64,000 bases of DNA, taken from the IMG/VR virus record IMGVR_UViG_3300025030_001854, positions 1-64,000 of that record. The stretch is one strand, 5' to 3'. This stretch comes from a virus. Below are positions 40,692 to 64,000 of this stretch, in pieces; position 1 is the stretch's first letter; each line of letters starts with the position of its first letter. The position numbers were made by a program, and so were the translations under genes. Below the pieces are notes generated by a model. That model was not told the origin of the DNA. It made no database searches and saw nothing but the letters and a program-made list of their open reading frames with translations.

Positions 40692-42176
40692 CTAACTGCT
40701 TTTCTTGGATTCGTGACAAGAACAGTCGCAACTCTTCTTAGAACACCAATTAAATTTCTTTTTTAGCCAAACTAAAAGTCCAGCACAAAAAATTGGAATT
40801 CCTATACAAAAAATTCCACCATCAATACAAGATATCATTATTTTTCCCCTTTAGAACATTTACCACATAAAAATTGTGAGCCATTCCACCATAATAACAA
40901 CAAAGGATAAATATCGTGACAACATTCGCATTCTTGCAAAAGGTCATAATTCCCTATATTGTCGTATCCATCCCACATATTATAGTTTATTAAATTAATT
41001 CCCTAAGATAACGTTTAATTTCAATACGAGCGGGTTTATTAGCTTTGGCATATTGCTTTTTAGAAGCTCTAATAGCAGTATGAAGCTTGTCTTCTGGAAG
41101 TTCTGAAGATTCTCGTAATGCTTTTCTAATGAGTTTTGCTGTTTTTGCGTTCATAAAAGTTTAACTATTTTTTATATATTTTTCTAATTCTTTATCGGGT
41201 AAATTTTTTCTCATTTCGACACATTGAGGATTTGAAGAAGAACATCTACCGCCAAATTTTAAGCATTCATAAAAATAAGAGCCTTTTAAATTCATTAATT
41301 CTTGTCTAGTAGATTTTGGGGCCAATTCTGGATATTTTTTAAACGATACAAATTTACCAAGCTCTAAATTTCCAACTTTTTTACATTCTACAAATTGAAT
41401 ACTATAACGTCTCATATTAAATTCCAGTAAAAGTGTCTTTTTTCTTTTTTTTAAACCACTCTTCTACTTCTAACCACAAAGCCACTACAATTAGTAGAAC
41501 TAATATAAAAAAATCTTTTATGGTTCTCATTGGAGCCCTAAGATGGTATCGCGCCATCGTCTCTTGAATACCAATCAAGAATAATGCTTTTATACTATTA
41601 GGGCATAAACAAAATATTTGAGCCCCGTCCCAGAATTGCACTGAGATTTCTTCCTTACGAGGGAAGCACATCTCTATTTATGTTTACGGGGCTTAGACCC
41701 ATTATAAAATGGGCGGGTTCTGGCCAAATTTAAGCGGTTACTAATTGAGAATTCTTATATTCTTCTCCGCACTTATCACAAACAACAACTGGTTGAAATC
41801 CAATTTCTTCTCGGCCCGTGCCACTCAATAGGGCCGAAACCTTACGAATTGTCAATACTTGTTTAAAGTATCCATGTCCACACTTACACATAACTTGTGT
41901 CGTTTGAGACATAGGAATACTGCGAGGACTTAGGTCTGATGCGTTCATATTTTTAATTTAAAAAGAAAATTCCGACTAAACAAAATAAAACACCAATACC
42001 TAAATAAGCAAATAGCTTACATAGCATTTTAAAGTTTTTGGCATTTGCTTGTTCTTCAACGTATAAATTATCCCAAGAGGTTTCTTCCTGTTTAAGGACA
42101 GGAGATTTAAGGTCAATTTCTTGATTTTCCATATAGGTTATATTAAATTAGAGTTGCTGGTTTGTCAAACAAAAAT

Positions 42177-53514: not shown

Positions 53515-54099
53515 TTAAAAATGTTTTTGACTATGACAATTGGGACACAAATACATTAAATTGTTAATTAAATTATTTTTTTTATTTTCGTCTATGTGAT
53601 GAATTTGTAATTGAATTGGATTATTTTTCCAAGAATCAATACTACATTCAAAACATTTATAAGGAACATTATGAATATTCATATGCTTTTTAAGAGATTT
53701 TCTTGTTAATCTTTCCTGTCTAAGTATTGTTTTTTGATTTGTTAGTTGTGCGGTTTTTAAACCTCCGCGTTTTCTCCCATTATCACGACCAATAGAAACA
53801 TCAACATTTAACTTTAATAATCTTTTTTTATAATGATACCATGCTCCACCACTCATTCCGACGCCTAAATATAATAAAAATTGATTAATTGAATCACTCT
53901 CCCTCCAAACCTCTAACAACTTTTCATCCGAAAATTTAAAACGATTCTTTAAATATATATTTGGTTTCGTTTTTAAATTTAATTTTTTTAACCGATAACG
54001 TATTCCAGTTTCACTTAATCCCACATTGGAACTTAATTCTTTAATTGTTAAACCCTGGTCAATTAAATCTTCCAAAAACTTTCTTTCTAATATTTTCAT
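53515..54099 (-). mobile_element. HTH-HNH endonuclease
   Basis: CFEC, LQIHHID, N...NLMYLCPNCHSQ. Confidence 0.85.
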
Positions 54100-54166
54100 A
54101 TCTCATATTACACCGAAACAGTGAATGTGAGAACAATAAATATCTCGCTATACTCAAAAAACTAAA

Positions 54167-54240
54167 TGGTCGGTCATGTCGTAATCCCAACGACCCCTTA
54201 TGCTCCCAAAGCACATGTGCTTGTTCAACACTTATGACCG
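54167..54240 (-). tRNA. tRNA-Pro(TGG)
   Basis: C1-G72, TGTGC TTTGGGA GCATA. Confidence 0.75.
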
Positions 54241-54243
54241 ATA

Positions 54244-54317
54244 TGGTGAGGCGTAACGGTAACTCTCCGCTTTAGCTAGTTTGTAATACTAGTGCATTAA
54301 TTTTATGCTAACACCCC
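54244..54317 (-). tRNA. tRNA-Val(TAC)
   Basis: CTAGT ATTACAA ACTAG. Confidence 0.75.
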
Positions 54318-54320
54318 AAT

Positions 54321-54449
54321 TTTTCAGAGAACAGACAACAACAGCTTTTTTAACGTGCTACTATTACACCAACGACTTTCGTCGCCTTGGATTTGCACCA
54401 AAACCTTTCGTTTGATAGACGATGAAACTGTTATTTACACTACTGAAAA
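54321..54449 (-). ncRNA. YrlA-like Y RNA (permuted tRNA-like domain)
   Basis: CAGTAGTG...TGTTCTCTG end stem; T arm TTGG TGCAAAT CCAA, closed acceptor CGAC GAAA GTCG, then D arm GGTGTAATAGTAGCAC. Confidence 0.75.
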
Positions 54450-54523
54450 TGGTGAACGTTGAGAGAATCGCACTCCCGTCTCGGATATGTCGCACCCGCG
54501 CTTTTCTTTTAAACTAAACGTCC
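54450..54523 (-). tRNA. tRNA-Val(GAC)
   Basis: CGGGT GCGACAT ATCCG. Confidence 0.75.
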
Positions 54524-54826
54524 AATTCTAAATTTTGTAAATAAGAATATTCGCAATGAGCTAATAAGGCTTCAAATAATTCTTCGTCTGTTACGTCTGA
54601 CAAATTTGTTTCTTCTTTATTCATAATTAAGCAAACCTTCCATTCTTACAAATATACTCATACATACTACAATCCGCCCCGCAACCTAACTCGAAACAAA
54701 ACCTAAACCCGACATGTAATACTTTATGCTTTGTTTTCATCCATGTCAAGCCGTTATTTTTCCATGGCTTTCCTATAAATTCAAGATTTTTATATTTATT
54801 TTTAATATCTTGAGAAACGTAAATAT

Positions 54827-55069
54827 TCATTGGTCAACTTTTCTGTAATTCTTTTGCCATAAACCTCTTGTAATAAGATTCGCGGCCTTAATAACTTCTT
54901 TTTCAGACATTTCATGAAATGCCTCATGAATAAGCTCATGGACTAAAGTATTTAAATAAGCTTTGGGTTTTTGTCTTGGGTCAATTTCTATTAAATTATC
55001 GCCCTGATAACACATTCCCCAGGCTTTGTTTCGGCCTAATTTTTTATCTATGATTTTAAGTTTGGCCAT
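54827..55069 (-). CDS. Small HEXXH zincin-like protein
   Basis: TLVHELIH motif. Confidence 0.55.
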   Translation of the reverse strand: MAKLKIIDKKLGRNKAWGMCYQGDNLIEIDPRQKPKAYLNTLVHELIHEAFHEMSEKEVIKAANLITRGLWQKNYRKVDQ

Positions 55070-55203
55070 GACTTAAATTACACTAATAACTAGAGACGAT
55101 TCCCGATTCTCCACGTCTCACTTTCCTTCGGAAATATTTTATTTTCCCGCCTACTCGGAACATACTAATTTATTTATCGTATCTTTTATATGATAGTTAA
55201 AAA

Positions 55204-55278
55204 TGGTGACGGTGACAGGAATTGCACCCGCACTTGTTGGTGTCTAAAACCAATGCCTCTGCGTTGGGCTACACCGCC
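55204..55278 (-). tRNA. tRNA-Leu(TAG), short variable arm
   Basis: TTGGT TTTAGAC ACCAA. Confidence 0.75.
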
Positions 55279-55285
55279 AATAAAA

Positions 55286-55368
55286 TTACAGAGAACATAC
55301 AAATAAAGGTTTGCTTGTTGGCAGGCTTGGAGCCTAGTAGAAGTATCTTTATTTTATCGCTACTGTAA
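55286..55368 (-). ncRNA. Y RNA-like
   Basis: ACAGTAGCG...TACTTC...TGTTCTCTGT shared end-stem motif. Confidence 0.65.
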
Positions 55369-55369
55369 A

Positions 55370-55452
55370 TGGTAGCCAAGACGGGACTTGCACCCGTAAA
55401 ATTACGAAATTTTAAGTTTCGTTGCTGTGCTGTTCGCATTAATCACTTGGCC
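55370..55452 (-). tRNA. tRNA-Leu(TAA), enlarged D loop
   Basis: CGAAA CTTAAAA TTTCG. Confidence 0.7.
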
Positions 55453-55933
55453 GTTTTTTATTTTTACTTTTATATGTAGATGTCTGCGCGTGACAATTTG
55501 GACATAAAATTTGTAGATTCTCTAAACGATTATCTGTTTTTATTCCATTAATATGATGCAATTCTAAGGGAATTTTCTGATTTTGCCACTCTCTTATTTG
55601 ACATATTTCACATTCATACTTTTTTAATTTTCTATCAAAAAGTCTATTTTTTAAATTATGAGAGGTTGTTTTAGATGGACAATTATCGGTTAACCAATAT
55701 TCAATTGGTTTCCAATTAGATGTTTGTTTCCCTCTTAATAATTTATTGTAAGACCGACCAACCCAATGAGAAACATCAAAATTATATTTTTGAACAATTT
55801 TAACAATTATTTTAAATTGACTAGAAGATTTCCCTGTCTGACCTAGTGATAACAATACCATTTTTATTGTAATATTATTTTTATCATTTATAGCTTTTAC
55901 AGCTTCTTCGTCAGTAAATTTTCTAGCACTCAT
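55439..55933 (-). mobile_element. HNH endonuclease overlapping tRNA-Leu(TAA)
   Basis: CEIC, LELHHING..DNRLENLQILCPNCHAQT. Confidence 0.85.
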
Positions 55934-55974
55934 ATATGTATAGATATACACACGTCTATGCTTATAGAGAAATA

Positions 55975-56081
55975 TTAATAGAACAAGCAATAAGAACGGC
56001 ACAATGCCAGTTTTCCCAATTACTAATTTGGCGGGAAAATTCGATTATGAGTCGAAGTATTTCTTATTTATCACTAATTAA
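55975..56081 (-). ncRNA. Y RNA-like
   Basis: TAGTGATA...TACTTC GACTCATAATC...TTTTCCC/GGGAAAA...TGTTCT. Confidence 0.6.
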
Positions 56082-56083
56082 AT

Positions 56084-56158
56084 CGGGCGAACAACGAGGT
56101 TTGCACTCGCATAATCTTGATTCACAATCAAGGACATTAACGTTATGCTATATTCGCC
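56084..56158 (-). tRNA. tRNA-His(GTG)
   Basis: G-1:C73, CTTGA TTGTGAA TCAAG. Confidence 0.8.
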
Positions 56159-56164
56159 ATAAAA

Positions 56165-56293
56165 TGGTAGCCTGCCAGGAATCGAACCTAGTTTTAAATT
56201 ACTTTATCAACGTAGGCTTACTATAGATATCTTACATCTCAATTTCATTATTGTTGGTTATCTGACTTCCACAGAATACCCTCGTATCAGGCC
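56165..56293 (-). ncRNA. 129-nt tRNA-like RNA
   Basis: GGCCTG/CAGGCT-ACCA, T arm CTAGG TTCGATT CCTGG, no recognisable anticodon arm. Confidence 0.6.
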
Positions 56294-56463
56294 ATAAAAT
56301 TAAAAAGCGGGCTTGCTCTCCAGCTTGCCCGCTGGGGGTGTAGGCTAATGGTTTAGCTTATTCCCTCCACCACTTATACAATTTCACAACATTTCGACCA
56401 CCGTCCGAAAATTCTCCCCTTCAATGAAGTCGGCTAGTAGTTGTGCTGGGTTTGCAGGTATAA

Positions 56464-56539
56464 TGGCCCTCTATGCGAGACTCGCACTCGCTACATATCT
56501 TAGACAGAGATATATGATAAACTCATTCAACAATAGAGG
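56464..56539 (-). tRNA. tRNA-Asp(GTC)
   Basis: TATCT CTGTCTA AGATA, G73. Confidence 0.75.
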
Positions 56540-56615
56540 ATGTGCCTTGTTTTATTTTTATGAGAGCAATGGACATTCTTTATTACCCATCCTGACAAGG
56601 CGGAACTCTCGGGTA

Positions 56616-56692
56616 TGGCGAACATAGAGGGACTCGCACCCACAATCTTTGCCTTCGCAGGGCAATGCTTTATCTAATTTAGCTATATGTTC
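56616..56692 (-). tRNA. tRNA-Arg(GCG)
   Basis: TTGCC CTGCGAA GGCAA. Confidence 0.8.
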
Positions 56693-56697
56693 AAATT

Positions 56698-56886
56698 TTT
56701 ACGGAACAATTAGACTCAGTTTTGTCTGTGCTTTTCATCCAGACTTGCCATTATTTTGTTTCTTAAACAATTTTTAAGAACGTCCATTTTTGCGTTTTTG
56801 GCGCTATGTTTATACGTCCAATATGACTTGAAAGCCATATTATTTTTTTCATTGATAAAGATGAAACTGATTCTATCACCAGTAAA
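56698..56886 (-). ncRNA. Long Y RNA-like
   Basis: TACTGGTGATAG...TTTCATC...TGTTCCGTA end stem enclosing about 130 nt. Confidence 0.55.
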
Positions 56887-56887
56887 A

Positions 56888-56971
56888 TGGTAGACACGGA
56901 AAGATTTGCACTTTCATTTTCAATTTCTAATTACCATTACTAATTTCGAAGATTAGCTGGATTACGTGTCC
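56888..56971 (-). tRNA. Atypical D-armless tRNA-Arg(TCG)
   Basis: GGACACG/CGTGTCT-ACCA, CTAAT CTTCGAA ATTAG. Confidence 0.65.
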
Positions 56972-57696
56972 AATTTCTTTTTTTGTTTATTAACATGGGA
57001 AAATGGAGAAATATTTTTCCAATCTAAATTGTAATATTTGGCCCATTTTCTTATTGTATTGTCGGAACCCACTCCAATTAATTTTTTAATTTGTAAAATA
57101 TTTTTTGTTTTTAAAAGACTCTCCAATTCTTCTTTAGATGGACGGATAAATTTTCTATTACTAATCTTAGGAGAATGTCGCCAATTAGGATTTAATTGAG
57201 ATGGTTTTATTTTATATTTTTTATGTCTCTTTCCAGCAAATGAAGGTGTTTGGCTGTGACAGTTTGGGCAAAGAAAAGCTAAATTTTCCAAACGATTATC
57301 ATTAGATACTCCGTTCTTATGTTCTAATTGAAGACTTAATTTATTTCCTTGCCACTCTCCAAAATTTCCGCATTTTTCACATTTATAATCTAGTAATTGA
57401 AATTTAATAAGATTAGTTTTAATGTGTCGTCTATTTTGTATAGAATTTTCTTCTAATTTCCGTAAAAAATCATCTTTAGTATTTTTTCTTGTCAAGTTAG
57501 AAGAATTTACTCTCGATAAAAAATGTTTTGTATCTAATCCTAAAAATTCAATTCTCTTCCAACAGGTTTGATAATTAGACCCTTTATTTTCCATTCCAAA
57601 AAATCTTAAAACTTGAGACATACTAATGCTATTTTTAATAAGCTCAATAAAAGCATTATCTTCCATTTGCCAAACCACGCTTGTTCTTTTTCTCAT
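56962..57696 (-). mobile_element. HNH endonuclease overlapping tRNA-Arg(TCG)
   Basis: CEKC, LQLEHKNG..DNRLENLAFLCPNCHSQT. Confidence 0.85.
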
Positions 57697-57747
57697 ATCA
57701 TATATTACACAAAATAACGTAAGAAGTCTAATAATAGTGCAAAATAC

Positions 57748-57821
57748 TGGCTCCCCTCCCACCACTTGCAGATGGACTTACGCTTTCAAAGAGCGGTTTG
57801 CTACTCTTACAACAGAGGGGA
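57748..57821 (-). tRNA. tRNA-Gln(TTG)
   Basis: CGCT CTTTGAA AGCG. Confidence 0.7.
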
Positions 57822-57903
57822 ATTTCGCCAGAGCTTCGGATTAAACCGCATTTTTAATTGAGCCTCACTGTTCTGGCTAAGTGAGAATATACTTAATGAT
57901 AGT

Positions 57904-57979
57904 TGGTGGACACAGATGGGAATCGCACCCACTAAATCTTCATTGCGAATGAAGTGCATCGCTATTTTGCTTCTGGCCC
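57904..57979 (-). tRNA. tRNA-Ala(CGC)
   Basis: CTTCA TTCGCAA TGAAG, G3:U70. Confidence 0.75.
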
Positions 57980-57991
57980 ATTCTGTCTTTT

Positions 57992-58262
57992 GTTTAATAG
58001 GTATTAGGATTTCCAGCGTCACCTAAGTTTTTAACAACCTTTTCGCGGGGTATGCAACCAAGCCCGATTTGAGCCTCGTCTCAGCTAAGGATTTGCACCT
58101 TTTTATTATACCCATTTACCTTTATGGATGATACGCTCACGTAACTATGTTAGTAATGATGTCTAACTTCATCCGATACCACGATTTAGACCTATGGCAA
58201 ACCTCTTTAATAATTAATTAAATCAATGCCGACATCTAAACAGCAGTTCACACCTATTAAAC
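57992..58262 (-). ncRNA. Orphan structured RNA, about 270 nt
   Basis: 11-bp closing helix GTTTAATAGGT/ACCTATTAAAC, internal AAGG TGCAAAT CCTT T-loop hairpin. Confidence 0.55.
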
Positions 58263-58314
58263 GGATTCACCCCCAAAGGGTTTGGTTTTGCTTAATCACT
58301 AATAATACTAAGAC

Positions 58315-58394
58315 TGGTGGACCACGGCGGTAACACTCCGCTTTTTTTAACTTGCTTGCAAAGCAAGTTCAACATTTTTGTTGCCACGTAGCCC
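58315..58394 (-). tRNA. tRNA-Ala(TGC), atypical
   Basis: CTTGC TTTGCAA GCAAG, G3:U70. Confidence 0.65.
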
Positions 58395-58454
58395 AAGGAG
58401 GCGCGTATCGTTAACGCCGACGCCTGATTGAATACAGGAGGTCTTGTGAACCCA

Positions 58455-58544
58455 TGGCGGAAGCAGGGGGAGTCGCACCCACACCGGCTTTCACCGGCTT
58501 AGTTTAGCAAACTAATTCGACAAACTGATATTCGACTTACTTCC
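58455..58544 (-). tRNA. tRNA-Ser(GCT)
   Basis: TTAGT TTGCTAA ACTAA, long variable arm. Confidence 0.8.
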
Positions 58545-58668
58545 AAAGCCCGTTTGGTGAGCAACCCCCTATGCAAATCTTCATCCATAAACAAGTTGCA
58601 TAGCGCATACATTTATGAATCTCGCTCATTTCTAACGAGCATATCTAATAAATTAAATATCGAATTAA

Positions 58669-58754
58669 TGGCGGAAGCTAAGAGAATCGCACTCATAAGC
58701 CCTTGCGGACCAACAGTTTTCAAGACTGTGCCCTCGTCTATTCGGACAGCTTCC
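58669..58754 (-). tRNA. tRNA-Ser(TGA)
   Basis: ACAGT CTTGAAA ACTGT, long variable arm. Confidence 0.8.
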
Positions 58755-58842
58755 AAATCCCGATATTTAGTTTTCGGGCAAACAACATCAACTCTGTCTG
58801 ATGTCTGGCGATATTACATAACGGTAATATTCGTTGTTAACA

Positions 58843-58932
58843 TGGTGGGCGCGGCAGGAATTGCACCTGCGATGTTTACCCGATGGGATGAATTTTACAG
58901 ATTCACGTCTTCGCTACTCAAACCACACGCCC
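58843..58932 (-). tRNA. tRNA-Tyr(GTA)
   Basis: TGAAT CTGTAAA ATTCA, long variable region. Confidence 0.8.
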
Positions 58933-58936
58933 AATA

Positions 58937-59067
58937 TTGTGAGAACAAACGAAAAAAGCTTTTTTCTGTGCTACCGCTACACTAAGACGGCATTTTGAGC
59001 CGTCTGCAAGACTTGAACTTGCCCTAGTCTTTACAATAAGATGAAACTCTTTTCTGACGCTACACAA
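58937..59067 (-). ncRNA. YrlA-like Y RNA (permuted tRNA-like domain)
   Basis: TGTGTAGCG...TGTTCTCACA end stem; T arm GCAAG TTCAAGT CTTGC, closed acceptor AGACGGC/GCCGTCT, D arm TAGTGTAGCGGTAGCAC. Confidence 0.8.
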
Positions 59068-59068
59068 A

Positions 59069-59139
59069 TGGCAAGAAGTGTGAGACTCGCACTCACCAAG
59101 ACAAGTTTTGGAGACTCGTCACCGCCTTGCGGACTTCCT
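59069..59139 (-). tRNA. tRNA-Trp(CCA)
   Basis: CGAGT CTCCAAA ACTTG, G73. Confidence 0.75.
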
Positions 59140-59144
59140 ATTAA

Positions 59145-59211
59145 TTGAGAGAACAAATAATTTCAGCGTTGTTTCATTAGACGTGAAGTAACTGAAATAG
59201 ACACTACTCAA
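59145..59211 (-). ncRNA. Short Y RNA-like
   Basis: TGAGTAGTG...TACTTC...TGTTCTCTCA. Confidence 0.65.
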
Positions 59212-59215
59212 ATAT

Positions 59216-59292
59216 TTGCGGAAAATCAGGAGTCGAACCTGTTATCTCTAACCTTATGAGGGTTGAATGGTATTCCGTTCCACTCTTCCGCA
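59216..59292 (-). tRNA. tRNA-Met(CAT), initiator-like
   Basis: TGCGG...CCGCAA ends, loop CTCATAA, canonical TTCGA. Confidence 0.75.
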
Positions 59293-59367
59293 TGGCTCTC
59301 GGGGCTTGATTCGCACAAGCATATCGCGCTTTAACAGAACGCTTCACTACTTTTGTGATACCCGAGA
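59293..59367 (-). tRNA. tRNA-Asn(GTT)
   Basis: Loop CTGTTAA, U1-A72, G73. Confidence 0.8.
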
Positions 59368-59378
59368 ATTATAAAACA

Positions 59379-59658
59379 TTTTAATACTAAATACATAAGA
59401 AGTTTTTATGGTCATTTCAACCACTTTGATAGGTAAAACCACCATTCGTTATCTCTGAATTACATAATATAGAGGCAATTCTCAGAATGGCCATACGTTT
59501 AATGGACCGAAAGTTTAAGGTTACCGCCCACATAGTCCTGCTCTGACCGAGAAATGTCAGCTTGATTGGCAAAAGGAAATCCCAAATATGCTTTACACAC
59601 CCAAAATATCCTACACAATGCTTATGTCTTGTAACATGTAACTGCATTAGTATTAAAA
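59379..59658 (-). ncRNA. Orphan structured RNA, about 280 nt
   Basis: 12-bp closing helix TTTTAATACTAA/TTAGTATTAAAA and inner ACATAAG/CTTATGT. Confidence 0.5.
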
Positions 59659-59659
59659 T

Positions 59660-59769
59660 TGGCACCTGTCGGGGTCTTTCTCCCCAATCACCACATTGAT
59701 ATCGGCAATAATTAGCACACAATCTCTAATTATCAAAAGTATCGAATATCGTGGCACTTGTGTTCAGGT
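59660..59769 (-). ncRNA. 110-nt tRNA-like RNA with elongated anticodon arm
   Basis: ACCTG/CAGGT-GCCA, T arm GGGG AGAAAGA CCCC, long CCAC..ATAATTAG/CTAATTAT..GTGG stem. Confidence 0.5.
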
Positions 59770-59774
59770 ATAAA

Positions 59775-59851
59775 TGGTAGTGGTAGACGGAGTTGCACCG
59801 ACATTTTACTCGCTGAAAACGAGGAGTCCTAGACTATTAGACGATACCACC
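59775..59851 (-). tRNA. tRNA-Glu(TTC)
   Basis: CTCG TTTTCAG CGAG. Confidence 0.75.
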
Positions 59852-59979
59852 ATAAAATTGAATACTTGTAACAACATGCATTACAAGTATTTAGAAGAAA
59901 TGTTAGACCCTTCTTGGGAAGCCTAACTTAGTGGTAATTCTTCATACCGTTCTATAACTATTGCAATAATTATAGAAAA

Positions 59980-60462
59980 TTATTTAATAATTGGACTCGT
60001 TTTTATATGTTGTAATAAAGAAAGGATTTGTTCTTTTCTATATCCATTTTTTCCTAAATTAACAAAAATACAAACAAATTCGACATTTCCCTCAACATAT
60101 CCCTTTGAAGAATCTATTCTATCTAGAGAAGCTTTTGCTGGATTATGAGTAGAAAATCTTCCTTTGTCTAAATGCATATTAATACCTAAATATGGGCAAA
60201 TTCCCATTTGAATATCCCAAATAGATTTAAGATAACTTACGGTTAAATTAAAATCTAACTGTTTTAGTTTTGCATTTTTCTTTGCTGTGCTTACATAGAC
60301 TCTAAAAGGAGAAAATTCATCTTCTTCACTTGCCTGACAAGATAAAGAACAAAAAAATCTATCTTTTTTTCTCCCTCTAGAAAGCTGACGAGTATACTCT
60401 CGTTTCTCCTTTTCAAAGGATATTCCACATTTAAAACAAATCAATTGTAATACTTCTCTCAT
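59980..60462 (-). mobile_element. HNH-like endonuclease
   Basis: CFKC, FCSLSC, CPYLG, ASLDRIDSSKGYVEGNVEFVC..VN. Confidence 0.75.
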
Positions 60463-60502
60463 ATAAGTATTTACACTATCCGGTGGAGCTTGAGAAACAA
60501 AA

Positions 60503-60577
60503 TGGTGGAGATAGATGGTTATGCTCCATCTATTAGACTATGCCATAGTCTTGTGATACTGATTTCACCATATCCCC
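60503..60577 (-). tRNA. tRNA-Ala(GGC)
   Basis: AGACT ATGGCAT AGTCT, G3:U70. Confidence 0.8.
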
Positions 60578-60884
60578 AGAAGGGCACTTAACGTCGAATG
60601 AGGAATTCTAGTTAAATGCCACCGACAAAAAAAAGAAAATTAGGAGGGAATATCTTATTACCCCCAAGCACTCTTTCTTTTAGATTATTCGGTCAGATAG
60701 GACCGTCGTCCCAAAATTGCGCTGTTATGGAATATAAAATCGCAACTACATTTAATATTTCGGTTGGCCGACCTAATAAAAAAATTACCTTATCTAAAAG
60801 ATTTCATGGCAGCCCAGCTTCATTTTTCATGAGTCGAGCACGTTACAAGTAACAGTACTTGTTTTTCTGTCACTAATCTTCTTA

Positions 60885-60958
60885 TGGAGCAGTATGTCGG
60901 TAACGCTCCGACTTGTTTTGATTGGCAATCAAACGCATTACTTTTGTGCTAATACTGC
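60885..60958 (-). tRNA. tRNA-Gly(GCC)
   Basis: TTTGA TTGCCAA TCAAA, U73. Confidence 0.8.
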
Positions 60959-61118
60959 ATAGAAATTGAGTAATGAACGAATATTTTCAATTTGTTCATC
61001 ACAATAAAGAACATCTTGCCCTTACGATTTCTCGTAGCTGGTTCTTACCCCCAGTCGTTCGTTTAATTAATCGGGCCAAACTCTCAAAAAGCCACTCTGC
61101 ATTTCTTACTACGATTCT

Positions 61119-61147
61119 ATACTACGTTCAGTTTGTGCTTCTGTCAA
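61119..61147 (-). promoter_or_regulatory. sigma70-like promoter at the head of the tRNA array
   Basis: TTGACA-N17-TAGTAT; boxA-like TGTTCTTTA at 61005-61013 downstream. Confidence 0.65.
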
Positions 61148-61196
61148 TACTCTCTTTTCGATTTCTTGTCAGATTTTGTGGGATTTTATAATTAAA

Positions 61197-61230
61197 TAAA
61201 AAACCCGCTATCTTTTCAGGGACAGCGGGT
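61197..61230 (-). terminator. Intrinsic terminator of putative attenuator
   Basis: ACCCGCTGTC...GATAGCGGGT followed by TTTTT. Confidence 0.8.
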
Positions 61231-61250
61231 ATTTAACTATTTTCCCCCAC

Positions 61251-61346
61251 TTATCCCACACCCCCTGTATTGGCAATAAAATAACAATCACTTGCCCATT
61301 TAGGAGCGAGGGTCACTGTTTCTGATTGACGTAATACAAATATCAT
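61251..61346 (-). CDS. 31-aa leader peptide MIFVLRQSETVTLAPKWASDCYFIANTGGVG
   Basis: GTGTAA motif 9 nt before ATG; stop 20 nt before terminator; 19 different amino acids. Confidence 0.65.
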   Translation of the reverse strand: MIFVLRQSETVTLAPKWASDCYFIANTGGVG

Positions 61347-63485
61347 TTTCTTATCTTACACCTATTTGATGTAATTTTCCAAAAAAAATTCAAAAAGAAA
61401 TTAAACTTTCAAAAATTTTTCAATTCTTTTCTCTTGATGAGTATTTCCATAAGGAATAGTTGGAAGCCAAGGGAAGCTTCTTCCAGTCCATCCTATTGGT
61501 AAATCTTTTAAAGTTTCTACTTTTTTAACGTCAAAAGTGATAGAATCTGCCTGAGCAACAATTTCGTCTCTATTTTTTCTCCAAATATCCTCGGCGAGCT
61601 TCTTTAGGTCAGATTCTTGATAGAAATTTTCTCCAACTATTTCAGTTTCTAATGTTATTTTAATTTTAATTAAACTCATATATTAGTTGCTCTTTAGAAC
61701 AAAGACATTCAGGAGCATCAGGAAACTTAACAATTAAATAATTTCCATCAGGTTGATGTTTCAAATTTGGAAAAGTCTCTTGCATTCTTAACGACTCTTC
61801 AATACTATAAATTTCTCCCTCGGTATTTTTATTTATTAAAGTTTTTCCAATTTTTATTGGATATTTAGCTAATACCCTTTGACGAATCATAAACTATTTA
61901 TTAAAATATAAATACATCAATAATCCAATAATAGTTAAATATCCTGCATGGATTAGAACTTTAACGCCCTTAAACCCCACAAATACTCCCATACAGAAAC
62001 TAACTAGACTACTTAGTTGCGGTGGTTGAGGCGGGTTCATTGGATATTCCATTGTTAACTTTATTTAAAAGTCCTTCGCACGTTCCCTTTAGCTTGTCCC
62101 TCAAAGCTCCACCAAGGAAAAAGTGGTCAATTAGAAATACGACCGCTATCCAGTAAAGCGTGTTTTTGTTTTCGTTAACGAAACTTTTAAGACCGTCTGT
62201 TATTGAGTTCATAATGTTATTATTTGTTGTTTTGTTTTCTAAAATAGGTCTATCTAATTTGGCTTCTTGTTTAGCTTCTGAATAAGCAGCAGCTAATTCT
62301 TTGTACATATCATTTCTCTCTGACTCGTTATTCCATGACCAAGATGTATCAGTTCCATTCTTAAAAAAGATTCTTATTGAATATGGCTTATCACACTGGA
62401 CATTGTTATTGATGACCGTCATTCTTGAAATTTCATATAAATCTATCGACACCCAAGAATTTGAAAATATTCTATTCATAATTTTTTTCGTTTCATAAAT
62501 CTTCCGCATATCTCACATCTAGGTGGCCAGCCGCCCAATCCATGAACATAACACTCTTCATCTGGCTCTAATGCCTGAATAGAACAAGAACAAGTATGAG
62601 GTTCTTTACAAATATGTTTTTTAATTTTTTTCATTTAATTTAAATAATGATTTCTTCCAAAAGAAACAAATACATCTAAAGAATCACCATTATATTGATT
62701 TGCCGATTTTCCTAAATTAAATTCGTCGGGGTATGACACTCCATTGATTGTTACGGCTGGACAATATAAATTAAATAACCCACTTTCATATCCATTAATA
62801 ATATAACATGGACGAGAAAATTTACCGTCCTTTCTATATTTGAAAGGATAAGGTCCATCAAAATTATTTTTAAATACTTGTCTTGGATTCATATTTTCTC
62901 TTTAATCGTTGAAGTTCTGCCCGTTCTTTTATTTCTATTTTCTTGGCAGCTAATTGATTATGTTTTTCTAGCTGGTTAGCAACGAGATTTCTCACCCTTT
63001 CGTCGGGAACGATATTGACTGATAATAATATTGCTTCCCGTATCATTTGATTAGGATGGGTTGGAACTGTATGGAAAATATAATCTTTTGCTAATTTTTC
63101 ATATTCTTCATCTGTATAAAAGTCAATCTTCGTATCTGGAATATCTGTTACAGTCCTTGGATAGGAGCTTATTAAAGCATATTTAGCATTTTCCCATGGC
63201 GTTGTTTTCTTTTTCATAATTAAAATTTTTTATTTACAATCTCCATTAGTACAAATTGGACGGCCCGAAGACGTATAAGACAACGGGTATTTACATTTAG
63301 GACACTTACCGATGGCCAAATAAATTTTCCTTTTTAGATAAAATCTTTTGTAAATAACCCACGGAACATCTTTAACACCAATATATAGAGATACAAAAAA
63401 CAATATCAAAGCTATATAAAAAATTGACTCATTCATAAATCTTTATCCAGAATACAAGGTAGTTGAGAAATCGTCAAGGAAAAAG

Positions 63486-63514
63486 AAAAGGGCTAGAGAG
63501 ATTATCTCTAGCCC
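63486..63514 (-). terminator. Terminator after Ro60 gene
   Basis: GGGCTAGAGAT/CTCTAGCCC hairpin plus T tract. Confidence 0.7.
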
Positions 63515-63535
63515 GTGATTTAAAACTATTTAAAG

Positions 63536-64000
63536 TTATTCTTGGTTTAACTTTTCTAGTTCGATAATGTAATCCAAAACGGCCTCAGAAAAACCGTCAA
63601 TATGGTTCCAAGCCCCATATCCGACACCATTTTGATAAGCGGCAACATTGATAATATACCCATTACTTCCTTTACGAGGATTTATTACCCTGTCATGAGA
63701 TTGTTCGTCTGTAAAAACAATCAAACGTTCGTATGGAATATTAGATACGTCACCTATGGCTTTCCCTAAATAAGTTCCAGAATGAGTCTGACTATTCTTA
63801 ATGGCGTCCCTCAAGGCAAATCCTCTACGAGAAGGAACTTGCACGGTTGCATTAGAGAAAGTAAAGACCTCTACATCTTTAAACATTTCTCTAGCAAGAA
63901 TAGCTAGTCCACTTGCCCCGTCGTCCCTTGTAGACTCGGACTTAGCACTCATAGGAGCATTCATAGAACCCGAAACGTCAATAAGAAGAACAGTTTTACC
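63536..64000 (-). CDS. rsr: Ro60/Rsr TROVE protein, C-terminal vWA part (5-prime truncated by window)
   Basis: GKTVLLIDVSGSM, RRGFALRDAI, GTYLG, TDEQSHD, INVAAYQNGVGYG.W..IDGFSEAV. Confidence 0.85.
   Translation of the reverse strand, partial: GKTVLLIDVSGSMNAPMSAKSESTRDDGASGLAILAREMFKDVEVFTFSNATVQVPSRRGFALRDAIKNSQTHSGTYLGKAIGDVSNIPYERLIVFTDEQSHDRVINPRKGSNGYIINVAAYQNGVGYGAWNHIDGFSEAVLDYIIELEKLNQE

What the first reader, a model, noticed from the sequence alone, without database searches (positions are those of the whole stretch)
61197..61361. Pan-codon leader-peptide attenuator at the head of the tRNA and Y RNA array
Seen: a leaderless 31-codon ORF (61346-61251) encodes 19 of 20 amino acids (no His) with 28 distinct codons, and repeated residues mostly use different synonymous codons. 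It is followed 20 nt later by an intrinsic terminator. The sequence across the stop, GGGATAAGTGGG, and also ACAGGGGGT, can pair with the terminator 5-prime arm ACCCGCTGTCCC. Established: in amino-acid attenuators ribosome position selects terminator versus antiterminator. Inference: a ribosome reaching the stop masks the antiterminator and transcription ends, whereas stalling at any codon gives read-through into the array. That would make it a general sensor of tRNA depletion or damage rather than of one amino acid. Caveat: a separate sigma70 promoter lies downstream at 61119-61147.
Basis: partly seen in the sequence, partly recalled or inferred. Interest (0 to 1): 0.9.

Follow-up and report, generated by a model that had tools for sequence, protein, structure and literature searches.

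The report
Codon-diverse leader attenuator before phage tRNAs
In front of a groundwater phage's large block of tRNA genes sits a tiny 31-codon reading frame wired into an RNA switch with a transcription stop signal, which probably lets transcription run on into the tRNA genes only when ribosomes stall, although no experiment or distant relative yet confirms it.

Summary
The 31-codon ORF (61346-61251, minus strand) has 28 distinct codons and 19 amino acids. A strong intrinsic terminator starts 20 nt after its stop, and a promoter-like site lies downstream.

New here: the RNA has the full four-segment layout of a trp-type attenuator. Segment 1 lies inside the ORF, segment 2 spans the last codons and the stop, and segments 3 and 4 are the terminator arms. 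Ribosome-masking folds give terminator, then antiterminator, then terminator as the ribosome advances. None of 400 shuffles and none of the other 10 strong terminators in the genome does this.

A natural strain carries two compensating insertions. They add a base pair to the terminator and also fill the single bulge in the antiterminator.

Against: the start context is poor and the ORF's own promoter is weak. A strong separate promoter drives the array. Codon diversity is only p about 0.001-0.04 after matching composition. The codons are not matched to the phage's tRNAs. I found no syntenic relatives and no RNA data.

Verdict: probably (about 0.5) a translation-coupled attenuator. The 'general tRNA sensor' reading is inference. 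Earlier AI notes of this scan report similar leaders before tRNA arrays in other phages; they are unchecked, and my literature searches found nothing of the kind in print.

The parts
61401..61679 (-). Last ordinary gene (92 aa, no known family) of the small-gene operon downstream of Ro60. Its stop lies 170 nt before the terminator.
   Evidence: only 99-100% identical relatives
61353..61382 (-). Candidate weak promoter (TTGGAA-18 or TGGAAA-17, then TAAGAT). Its -10 ends 6 nt before the ATG, the same geometry as the phage's leaderless genes.
   Evidence: score 2.49, in the top 0.19% of genome positions, but far below true members (18-31)
61251..61346 (-). Leader ORF: 31 codons plus TAA, 28 distinct codons, 19 amino acids.
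   Evidence: Codon usage is gene-like: CAI 0.58, above 96% of 304 off-frame open windows.
61303..61313 (-). Segment 1 (ACCCUCGCUCC, codons 12-15), the anti-antiterminator arm that pairs with segment 2a.
   Evidence: the 1:2 structure is -22.6 kcal/mol
61255..61265 (-). Segment 2a (GGGGGUGUGGG, codons 28-31), which pairs with segment 1.
61244..61257 (-). Segment 2b (GGGAUAAGUGGGGG, spanning the stop codon), the antiterminator arm that pairs with the terminator 5' arm. It is a near-copy of the terminator 3' arm.
   Evidence: 11 bp plus a bulge at -15.7 kcal/mol; 12 contiguous bp at -20.4 in the variant strain
61219..61230 (-). Segment 3, the terminator 5' arm.
   Evidence: The variant strain has one U inserted between 61224 and 61223.
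61203..61212 (-). Segment 4, the terminator 3' arm.
   Evidence: The variant strain has one A inserted between 61209 and 61208.
61194..61202 (-). U tract of the terminator.
61119..61147 (-). Independent promoter of the tRNA array, a member of the phage's TTGAC-N7-CAAA-N7-TAnnnT class.
   Evidence: score 17.8, rank 22 in the genome
60885..60958 (-). First tRNA of the array (Gly, GCC). About 25 more follow on the same strand down to 40.6 kb.

Best explanation
This is a translation-coupled transcription attenuator of the trp/his type. It sits between the Ro60 small-gene operon and the tRNA array.

Transcripts enter from the upstream operon, and perhaps from a weak leaderless promoter at 61382-61353. 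They carry a 31-codon ORF and four pairing segments.
- If the ORF is not translated, or a ribosome is still in the first few codons, segment 1 (codons 12-15) pairs with segment 2a. The terminator (3:4) then forms and transcription stops at about 61200.
- If a ribosome runs through to the stop codon, it covers segment 2b, and the terminator again forms.
- If a ribosome stalls with its A site at about codons 9-26, it covers segment 1 and leaves segment 2b free. Segment 2b pairs with the terminator's 5' arm before the 3' arm is made, and RNA polymerase reads on into the tRNA array.

This 18-codon window holds 15 different amino acids. Shortage of almost any charged tRNA would therefore be sensed, rather than shortage of one amino acid.

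Shown: the ORF, the terminator, the three alternative helices with their energies, the uniqueness of the switch in this genome, and the compensatory strain variation.
Inferred: that the ORF is translated, that ribosome position decides the fold in vivo, that read-through adds meaningfully to the array's own promoter, and that the diversity is there for sensing.
For: 1. Four-segment topology. The 1:2 structure is -22.6, the 2:3 antiterminator -15.7 and the 3:4 terminator -17.3 kcal/mol. The 211-nt region folds with z = -3.2, and 0 of 200 shuffles fold as well.
2. Ribosome-masking folds give terminator at A-site codons 1-8, antiterminator or a near tie at 9-26, and terminator from 27 to the stop.
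3. Controls. Of 400 dinucleotide shuffles of the 116 nt upstream, 0 reach the real profile and 8 show a weaker switch. The segment 2b:3 duplex is matched by 6 of 400. Of the 11 strong terminators in the 137-kb genome, only this one switches.
4. A natural strain (a 20-kb contig in run X5) differs at 4 places in 1201 nt, and 3 of them lie within 43 nt of the module. One U is inserted in segment 3 and one A in segment 4. Together they add a U-A pair to the terminator. The same U pairs with the formerly bulged A of segment 2b, giving a perfect 12-bp antiterminator (-20.4 against a terminator of -18.2) and a clean profile: terminator, then antiterminator at codons 6-26, then terminator.
5. The terminator starts 20 nt after the ORF's stop. 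The genome's other terminators lie 3-28 nt after real genes' stops; this one lies 170 nt after the 92-aa gene.
6. The ORF's codon usage is gene-like. Its CAI of 0.58 lies at the 18th percentile of gene windows and above 96% of 304 off-frame open windows.
7. The phage often uses leaderless genes, with the ATG exactly 6 nt after the -10 hexamer: 11 cases at that distance, the peak of the distribution. The ORF has this geometry behind a weak promoter match.
8. Amino-acid and codon diversity lies in the tail of all nulls.
Against: - The start context scores at the 7th percentile of the phage's genes, and 36% of random ATGs score better.
- The ORF's candidate promoter scores 2.5 against 18-31 for true members.
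- A strong promoter of the phage's main class sits 56 nt after the terminator stem (61203 to 61147) and can drive the array on its own. The gain from read-through is therefore unclear.
- In the window's own strain the antiterminator is slightly weaker than the terminator, and equilibrium pairing of segment 3 with segment 2b is only 0.03-0.53 when segment 1 is masked.
- The diversity is only P = 0.011-0.036 for amino acids once composition is matched, and the feature was chosen after the fact.
- Leader codons are not enriched for codons read by the phage's own tRNAs: 20 of 31 against 64.7% genome-wide, P = 0.59. His is absent from the leader although a tRNA-His is encoded.
- No syntenic relatives exist in the collections I could reach, so conservation of the ORF is untested. 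The ORF shows no variation in the strains laid, which says nothing about coding constraint.
- In 103 other Ro60 loci, 0 of 6 terminator-before-tRNA heads show a switch or a diverse ORF.
Confidence: 0.5

Rival explanations
1. An ordinary operon-end terminator. The hairpin simply ends the Ro60 small-gene operon and insulates it from the array's own promoter. The 31-codon ORF is either untranslated or an unrelated small gene, and the alternative pairings are by-products of G-rich and C-rich runs.
For: - A strong independent array promoter follows the terminator.
- Start context and own promoter are poor.
- An ATG-started frame of this length is not rare: 11-18% of composition-matched shuffles stay open.
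- The diversity P-values are modest, and the codons do not match the phage's tRNAs.
- The terminator lies at the usual distance after a stop codon, as for any small gene.
- The compensatory insertions prove selection on the terminator only.
Against: - The switch profile is absent in 400 of 400 shuffles and in the 10 other terminators.
- Segment 2b is a near-copy of the terminator 3' arm.
- The inserted U of the strain variant falls exactly opposite the antiterminator's bulge.
- An untranslated 170-nt tail would be unusual in this compact genome.
- The frame has gene-like codon usage.
Confidence: 0.33
2. An RNA switch that does not need translation. The same three alternative helices are set by a bound factor (a protein, a tRNA as in T-boxes, or a small ligand) that stabilises or opens the 1:2 structure. 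The ORF is incidental.
For: The 1:2 helix encloses a separate hairpin and the whole region is well folded, with z = -3.2. The neighbourhood is rich in RNA-handling functions: Ro60, tRNAs and a tmRNA.
Against: - No Rfam family, T-box included, matches the region even at E up to 1.
- The frame's start, its stop inside segment 2 and segment 1 at codons 12-15 fit ribosome control closely.
- Codon usage is gene-like.
- No conserved aptamer can be shown without relatives.
Confidence: 0.1

Closest known systems
Leader-peptide transcription attenuators of amino-acid operons (trpL, hisL, pheL, leuL; multivalent thrL and ilvL). Named from my own knowledge; pheL appears in PMC3082878, seen as a search listing only.
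   Same: A short ORF is followed by an intrinsic terminator. There are four segments with mutually exclusive 1:2, 2:3 and 3:4 pairing. The ORF covers segment 1 and its stop lies at segment 2. A ribosome stalled over segment 1 is predicted to free the antiterminator.
   Different: There is no run of codons for one amino acid. Instead the diversity is near maximal: 15 amino acids in the 18-codon sensing window. What lies downstream is a tRNA array, not biosynthetic genes. A second promoter lies between the terminator and the array. The element sits in a phage. Nothing has been shown experimentally.
toiL, the uORF of E. coli topAI-yjhQ that senses several classes of ribosome-targeting antibiotics (PMC12121999; search listing and start of abstract seen).
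   Same: The logic is that of a general translation-stress sensor, in which stalling inside a short upstream ORF raises expression of what follows.
   Different: As I recall it, toiL acts through Rho-dependent termination and translation of the downstream gene, not through an intrinsic terminator and antiterminator pair. It controls a toxin-antitoxin pair, not tRNA genes.
The silent long tRNA array (trn operon) of Anabaena PCC 7120, induced by translational stress (PMC8421152, passages read; PMC10272220, abstract read).
   Same: An accessory tRNA array is switched on when translation is impaired, with RNA-repair genes as neighbours or co-regulated genes.
   Different: There, control is at the promoter, through direct repeats bound by the repressor TrcR. 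The words 'attenuat', 'leader' and 'terminator' occur 0 times in PMC8421152.
Earlier AI notes of this scan on other phages (for example e1-5618024, e1-3450868, e1-4045671): short leader ORF plus terminator before tRNA blocks.
   Same: The same architecture and the same proposed logic.
   Different: Those leaders are said to mirror the few amino acids of a small tRNA block. Here the array covers at least 19 amino acids, the leader covers 19, and I found no codon-level match. I did not check those notes.

Membership tests
Leader-peptide transcription attenuator (trp/his type) | Short ORF with a usable start, upstream of the regulated genes | tested here: inconclusive
   The ORF is present and its codon usage is gene-like. 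The start context is at the 7th percentile of genes and the leaderless promoter match is weak.
Leader-peptide transcription attenuator (trp/his type) | Intrinsic terminator between the ORF and the regulated genes | tested here: met
   A 10-bp stem with a run of 6 U at -17.3 kcal/mol. A compensatory double insertion in a natural strain keeps it paired.
Leader-peptide transcription attenuator (trp/his type) | Antiterminator that uses the terminator's 5' arm and is mutually exclusive with the terminator | tested here: met
   The 11-bp (12-bp in the variant) segment 2b:3 helix is at -15.7 (-20.4) kcal/mol. Its duplex energy is matched by 6 of 400 shuffles.
Leader-peptide transcription attenuator (trp/his type) | Anti-antiterminator (1:2) with segment 1 inside the ORF, so that ribosome position decides the fold | tested here: met
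   Met in silico only. Segment 1 is codons 12-15. Masking folds give a terminator, antiterminator, terminator profile, seen in 0 of 400 shuffles and 0 of 10 other terminators.
Leader-peptide transcription attenuator (trp/his type) | Cluster of codons for the amino acid that is sensed | tested here: not met
   No residue occurs more than 3 times and there are no tandem identical codons. The ORF has 19 amino acids in 31 codons.
Leader-peptide transcription attenuator (trp/his type) | Read-through depends on translation and stalling | not testable with these tools
   No RNA run is listed for this DNA, and the host is unknown.
T-box riboswitch | Match to the T-box leader model (specifier loop, T-box sequence) | tested here: not met
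   Rfam cmscan of 54000-64000 at E up to 1 lists only tRNA, tRNA-Sec-like and a weak manA match. Nothing falls at 61190-61400.
Intrinsic (Rho-independent) terminator | G+C-rich hairpin directly followed by a U tract | tested here: met
Ro60 / Y RNA module | TROVE-domain protein with adjacent Y RNA | tested here: inconclusive
   The TROVE domain is confirmed at E = 1.3e-19. No Y RNA family is matched by Rfam. I did not test the first readers' Y-like RNAs.

The most novel reading that the evidence does not exclude
The element is a universal gauge of the tRNA pool. A phage wrote almost the whole amino-acid alphabet into one leader peptide, so that depletion or cleavage of nearly any host tRNA stalls the ribosome in the 18-codon window. 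Such depletion could come, for example, from anticodon nucleases of anti-phage defence. Stalling lets transcription from the Ro60 operon run on into the phage's own tRNA and RNA-repair block, as a defence-triggered counter-defence switch. The strain differences concentrated in the terminator and antiterminator would then be tuning of its threshold.
Probability: 0.3. Interest if true: 0.85.

Novelty: new variant of a known kind. Interest (0 to 1): 0.62.

Why it matters
Phage tRNA arrays are now thought to replace host tRNAs destroyed by defence nucleases (PMC10264068; search listing and start of abstract seen). How phages control these arrays is essentially unknown.

A leader peptide that samples nearly all amino acids would turn the textbook single-amino-acid attenuator into a general sensor of decoding capacity, and would link sensing directly to tRNA supply. 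It is directly testable with a reporter in a coupled transcription-translation system. It would also give a compact, portable 'translation health' switch.

My three searches for leader-peptide or attenuator control of tRNA genes found no published account. If the rival is right instead, this is an ordinary terminator and of little interest.

Tried and rejected
Relatives:
- DNA search of 60800-62600 against 50,697 phage records found no match.
- The 92-aa upstream protein gave no relative in viral contigs or in metagenome contigs. In the 5.8-billion protein set it has only a 2-member cluster at 99-100% identity, seen on 12 and 5 contigs.
- The exact terminator 28-mer gave 0 matches in viral contigs.
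- Ro60 as bait gave 23 viral loci and 80 metagenome loci at 40-60% identity. None encodes a homologue of the neighbouring small genes, and none matches the region by blastn. Only HNH endonucleases are shared, in L082, L107 and L109.
- The DnaB-like helicase as bait gave 32 loci at 44-52% identity. The 5 longest records hold 0-3 tRNAs, so they have no comparable array.
- The scan's own index shows no look-alike stretch.
- I therefore could not test conservation of the ORF beyond near-identical strains.

Analogues: in the 103 Ro60 loci, a script found 6 terminators within 450 nt before a tRNA 'head'. None of the 6 showed a switching profile or a diverse short ORF. These loci are not syntenic, so this is weak evidence.

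Codon mirror: leader codons readable by the phage's tRNAs were 20 of 31 with 26 anticodons (64.7% expected) and 24 of 31 with 33 anticodons (85.2% expected). There is no enrichment. The anticodon list rests on ARAGORN at a relaxed threshold, Rfam and, for the longer list, first readers' unverified calls.

Expression: no RNA holder was listed. All runs laid were contigs, so no transcript ends could be read.

The 155 nt between the array promoter and the first tRNA fold no better than shuffles, with z = -0.78. I dropped the idea of a structured RNA there.

The host is not determined. rIIA-like and other proteins give only distant matches.

Supplementary files of papers were not consulted. They could hold transcript maps of phage tRNA regions that bear on novelty.
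Full report
**Setting.** The window is bases 1-64000 of a 136,838-base IMG/VR virus record, estimated 71% complete, with about 34% G+C. DNA near-identical to the stretch is held by groundwater metagenome runs. Around the finding all genes run on the minus strand.
- A TROVE/Ro60 gene of 468 aa (Pfam TROVE E = 1.3e-19) ends at 63536 and has its own terminator at 63514-63490.
- Eight small genes of unknown family follow, down to 61401.
- Next comes the element under study.
- Then comes a promoter-like site at 61147-61119.
- Last is a long array of tRNA genes on the same strand, from 60958 down to 40607. ARAGORN finds 12 at its default threshold and 25 at a relaxed one. Rfam adds more.
- HNH endonuclease genes are interspersed in the array.

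The ORF at 61346-61251 has 31 sense codons, 28 distinct codons and 19 amino acids, lacking only His. The terminator at 61230-61203 has a 10-bp stem followed by six U and starts 20 nt after the stop.

**How unusual is the diversity?**
- Against the window itself it is extreme. Two of 175 six-frame ORFs of 27-35 codons reach 19 amino acids. Of 28,555 open 31-codon windows, 0.28% reach 19 amino acids, 0.22% reach 28 codons and 0.014% reach both.
- Part of that comes from composition. The ORF is 41% G+C because it carries G-rich and C-rich stems in an A+T-rich genome.
- Against 20,000 open shuffles of its own letters, P(19 amino acids or more) is 0.011 (mononucleotide) or 0.036 (dinucleotide). The joint P with 28 codons is 0.0013 or 0.0044.
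- The diversity is therefore notable but, for a feature picked after reading 64 kb, not decisive on its own.

- In the fold of 61400-61190 (-54.8 kcal/mol, z = -3.2, 0 of 200 shuffles as good), a C-rich segment inside the ORF pairs with the G-rich end of the ORF. Segment 1 is 61313-61303 (codons 12-15). Segment 2a is 61265-61255 (codons 28-31).
- Segment 2b (61257-61244, spanning the stop) overlaps 2a by three G and pairs with the terminator's 5' arm (segment 3).
- The energies are -22.6 for 1:2, -15.7 for 2:3 and -17.3 for the terminator.
- I then removed the RNA that a ribosome would cover, through 13 nt past the first base of the A-site codon. The terminator is the best fold with the A site at codons 1-8. 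The antiterminator, or a near tie, is best at codons 9-26. The terminator is best again from codon 27 to the stop.
- This is the logic of the trp attenuator, which I name from my own knowledge.
- The sensing window of 18 codons holds 15 different amino acids.

**Controls for the switch.**
- I shuffled the 116 nt upstream of the terminator 400 times, keeping dinucleotides. None of the 400 shuffles gave a terminator when unmasked together with as many antiterminator states as the real sequence. Eight of 400 gave a weaker switch. Forty of 400 gave any antiterminator state. Six of 400 matched the segment 2b:3 duplex energy.
- My scan found 11 strong terminator-like hairpins in the whole genome. 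Nine always fold as terminators, one weak one never does, and only this one switches.

**Natural variation.**
- A 20-kb contig of run X5 spans the whole 1201 nt laid and differs at four places: 61100, 61241, one base inserted behind 61208 and one behind 61223.
- On the RNA strand the two insertions put a U into segment 3 and an A into segment 4, directly opposite each other. The terminator thereby gains a U-A pair (-18.2 kcal/mol, 11 bp).
- The same U also pairs with the A that is bulged in the window's antiterminator. That helix becomes 12 contiguous pairs at -20.4 kcal/mol.
- In that strain the profile is clean. The terminator forms with no ribosome and at codons 1-5, the antiterminator at codons 6-26, and the terminator from codon 27 to the stop. 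The mean pairing probability of segment 3 with its upstream partner is 0.47-0.92 in the middle window, against 0.07 unmasked.
- The paired insertions show selection on the terminator. That the added base also fits segment 2b is what the switch model predicts. I put it at a few per cent by chance; this is my rough estimate, not computed.
- Three of the four differences fall within 43 nt of the module.
- The ORF itself is invariant in X5 and X9, so there is no evidence on coding constraint.

**Is the ORF translated?** The evidence is mixed.
- For: its codon usage looks like a coding frame. Its CAI is 0.58, against 0.67 +/- 0.09 for gene windows and 0.45 +/- 0.07 for 304 off-frame open windows.
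- For: the genome's terminators lie 3-28 nt after the stops of real genes of 65-468 aa. This one lies 20 nt after the ORF's stop but 170 nt after the 92-aa gene.
- Background: the phage hardly uses Shine-Dalgarno sites, with AGGAG before 2 of 105 genes. Many genes are leaderless. For promoter matches of 9 of 12 or better, the distance from the -10 hexamer to an ATG peaks sharply at 6 nt, with 11 cases. These promoters share a TTGAC-N7-CAAA-N7-TAnnnT motif.
- Partly for: the ORF has exactly this 6-nt geometry behind TGGAAA-17-TAAGAT. That match scores only 2.5, against 18-31 for the true members, although only 0.19% of genome positions score as high.
- Against: the ORF's start context is at the 7th percentile of the phage's genes.
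- So 'leaderless' is possible but unproven. Transcripts from the upstream operon pass through the ORF in any case, since I saw no terminator between 63490 and 61230.

**Points against a regulatory role.**
- The array has its own promoter, a good member of the phage's main promoter class (score 17.8, rank 22). Read-through can only add to it.
- In the window's strain the two helices are nearly isoenergetic, so the switch would rely on the order of transcription.
- The leader's codons are not enriched for those read by the phage's own tRNAs: 20 of 31 against 64.7% expected, P = 0.59.
- I could find no syntenic relative by DNA, by the neighbouring proteins, by Ro60 or by the helicase.
- In 103 non-syntenic Ro60 loci, 0 of 6 terminators before tRNA heads show a switch.

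**Comparison with what is known.**
- The architecture matches leader-peptide attenuators in four of five structural features. It fails the fifth, a cluster of codons for one amino acid, and replaces it with maximal diversity.
- It is not a T-box by Rfam.
- In logic it resembles toiL, a uORF that senses many kinds of translation stress (PMC12121999; listing and start of abstract seen).
- It also resembles the stress-induced tRNA array of Anabaena. That array is controlled at its promoter by TrcR (PMC8421152, passages read; PMC10272220, abstract read).
- Three full-text searches for leader-peptide or attenuator control of tRNA genes or phage tRNA arrays returned nothing relevant.
- Earlier AI notes of this scan report similar leaders before tRNA blocks in several other phages. 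I did not check them and do not count them as support.

**Verdict.** The most likely reading (about 0.5) is a translation-coupled attenuator. Its sensing window covers 15 amino acids, and it gates read-through from the Ro60 operon into the tRNA array. An ordinary terminator with an incidental or unrelated small ORF remains a serious rival (about 0.33), and an RNA-only switch is a minor one (about 0.1). It would be a new variant of a known kind of control.

Noticed in passing
window 1250-1215, 1883-1848, 2451-2416, 5645-5610, 9519-9484, 10863-10828, 12114-12079, 19074-19039, 38914-38879, 40351-40316, 44106-44071, 46902-46867 (all minus strand); also G000 69647-69612: A phage-specific promoter class, TTGAC-N7-CAA(A/C)-N7-TAnnnT, is followed exactly 6 nt later by the ATG of a gene. 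This implies many leaderless mRNAs. The tRNA-array promoter at 61147 belongs to the class.
   Followed up: partly
whole genome (G000): Genes almost lack Shine-Dalgarno motifs, with AGGAG before 2 of 105 genes. They have A/T-rich upstream regions with T at -1 in 75% of cases. The host is unknown. Near-identical DNA is held by groundwater metagenome runs.
   Followed up: partly
window 61203-61245: Between two natural strains, 3 of 4 differences in 1201 nt fall within this 43-nt stretch of terminator and antiterminator. The surrounding genes and the ORF are identical. This may be tuning of termination strength.
   Followed up: partly
window 40607-60958, minus strand: Many tRNAs of the array are non-canonical. 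ARAGORN finds 12 at its default threshold and 25 on this strand only at a relaxed threshold. Rfam finds some that ARAGORN misses, at 41534, 42869, 54247, 54453, 57908 and 60888.
   Followed up: no
G000 70560-70942, minus strand (beyond the window): ARAGORN calls a phage-encoded tmRNA with an unusually long tag peptide. A calcineurin-like phosphoesterase (G000 65366-66160) and an ECF-like sigma factor (G000 68444-69055) lie next to Ro60.
   Followed up: no
window 60634-60891, minus strand: A weak sub-threshold Rfam match to the manA RNA motif (17.7 bits against a gathering score of 55.2, E = 0.52) lies between the first two tRNAs of the array. It is probably chance.
   Followed up: no
window 8476-8465 and 61358-61347, minus strand: The same 12-mer, TAAGATAAGAAA (the -10 hexamer plus the next 6 nt), occurs at a strong promoter of the class (site 8493) and at the leader ORF's candidate promoter.
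   Followed up: no
L082, L107, L109, L114, L115, L117, L118, L128: In several unrelated metagenome contigs the Ro60 homologue sits inside or next to a tRNA array. L082, L107 and L109 also carry HNH endonucleases related to those of this phage's array. Ro60 with tRNA arrays thus seems to be a recurrent phage module.
   Followed up: partly
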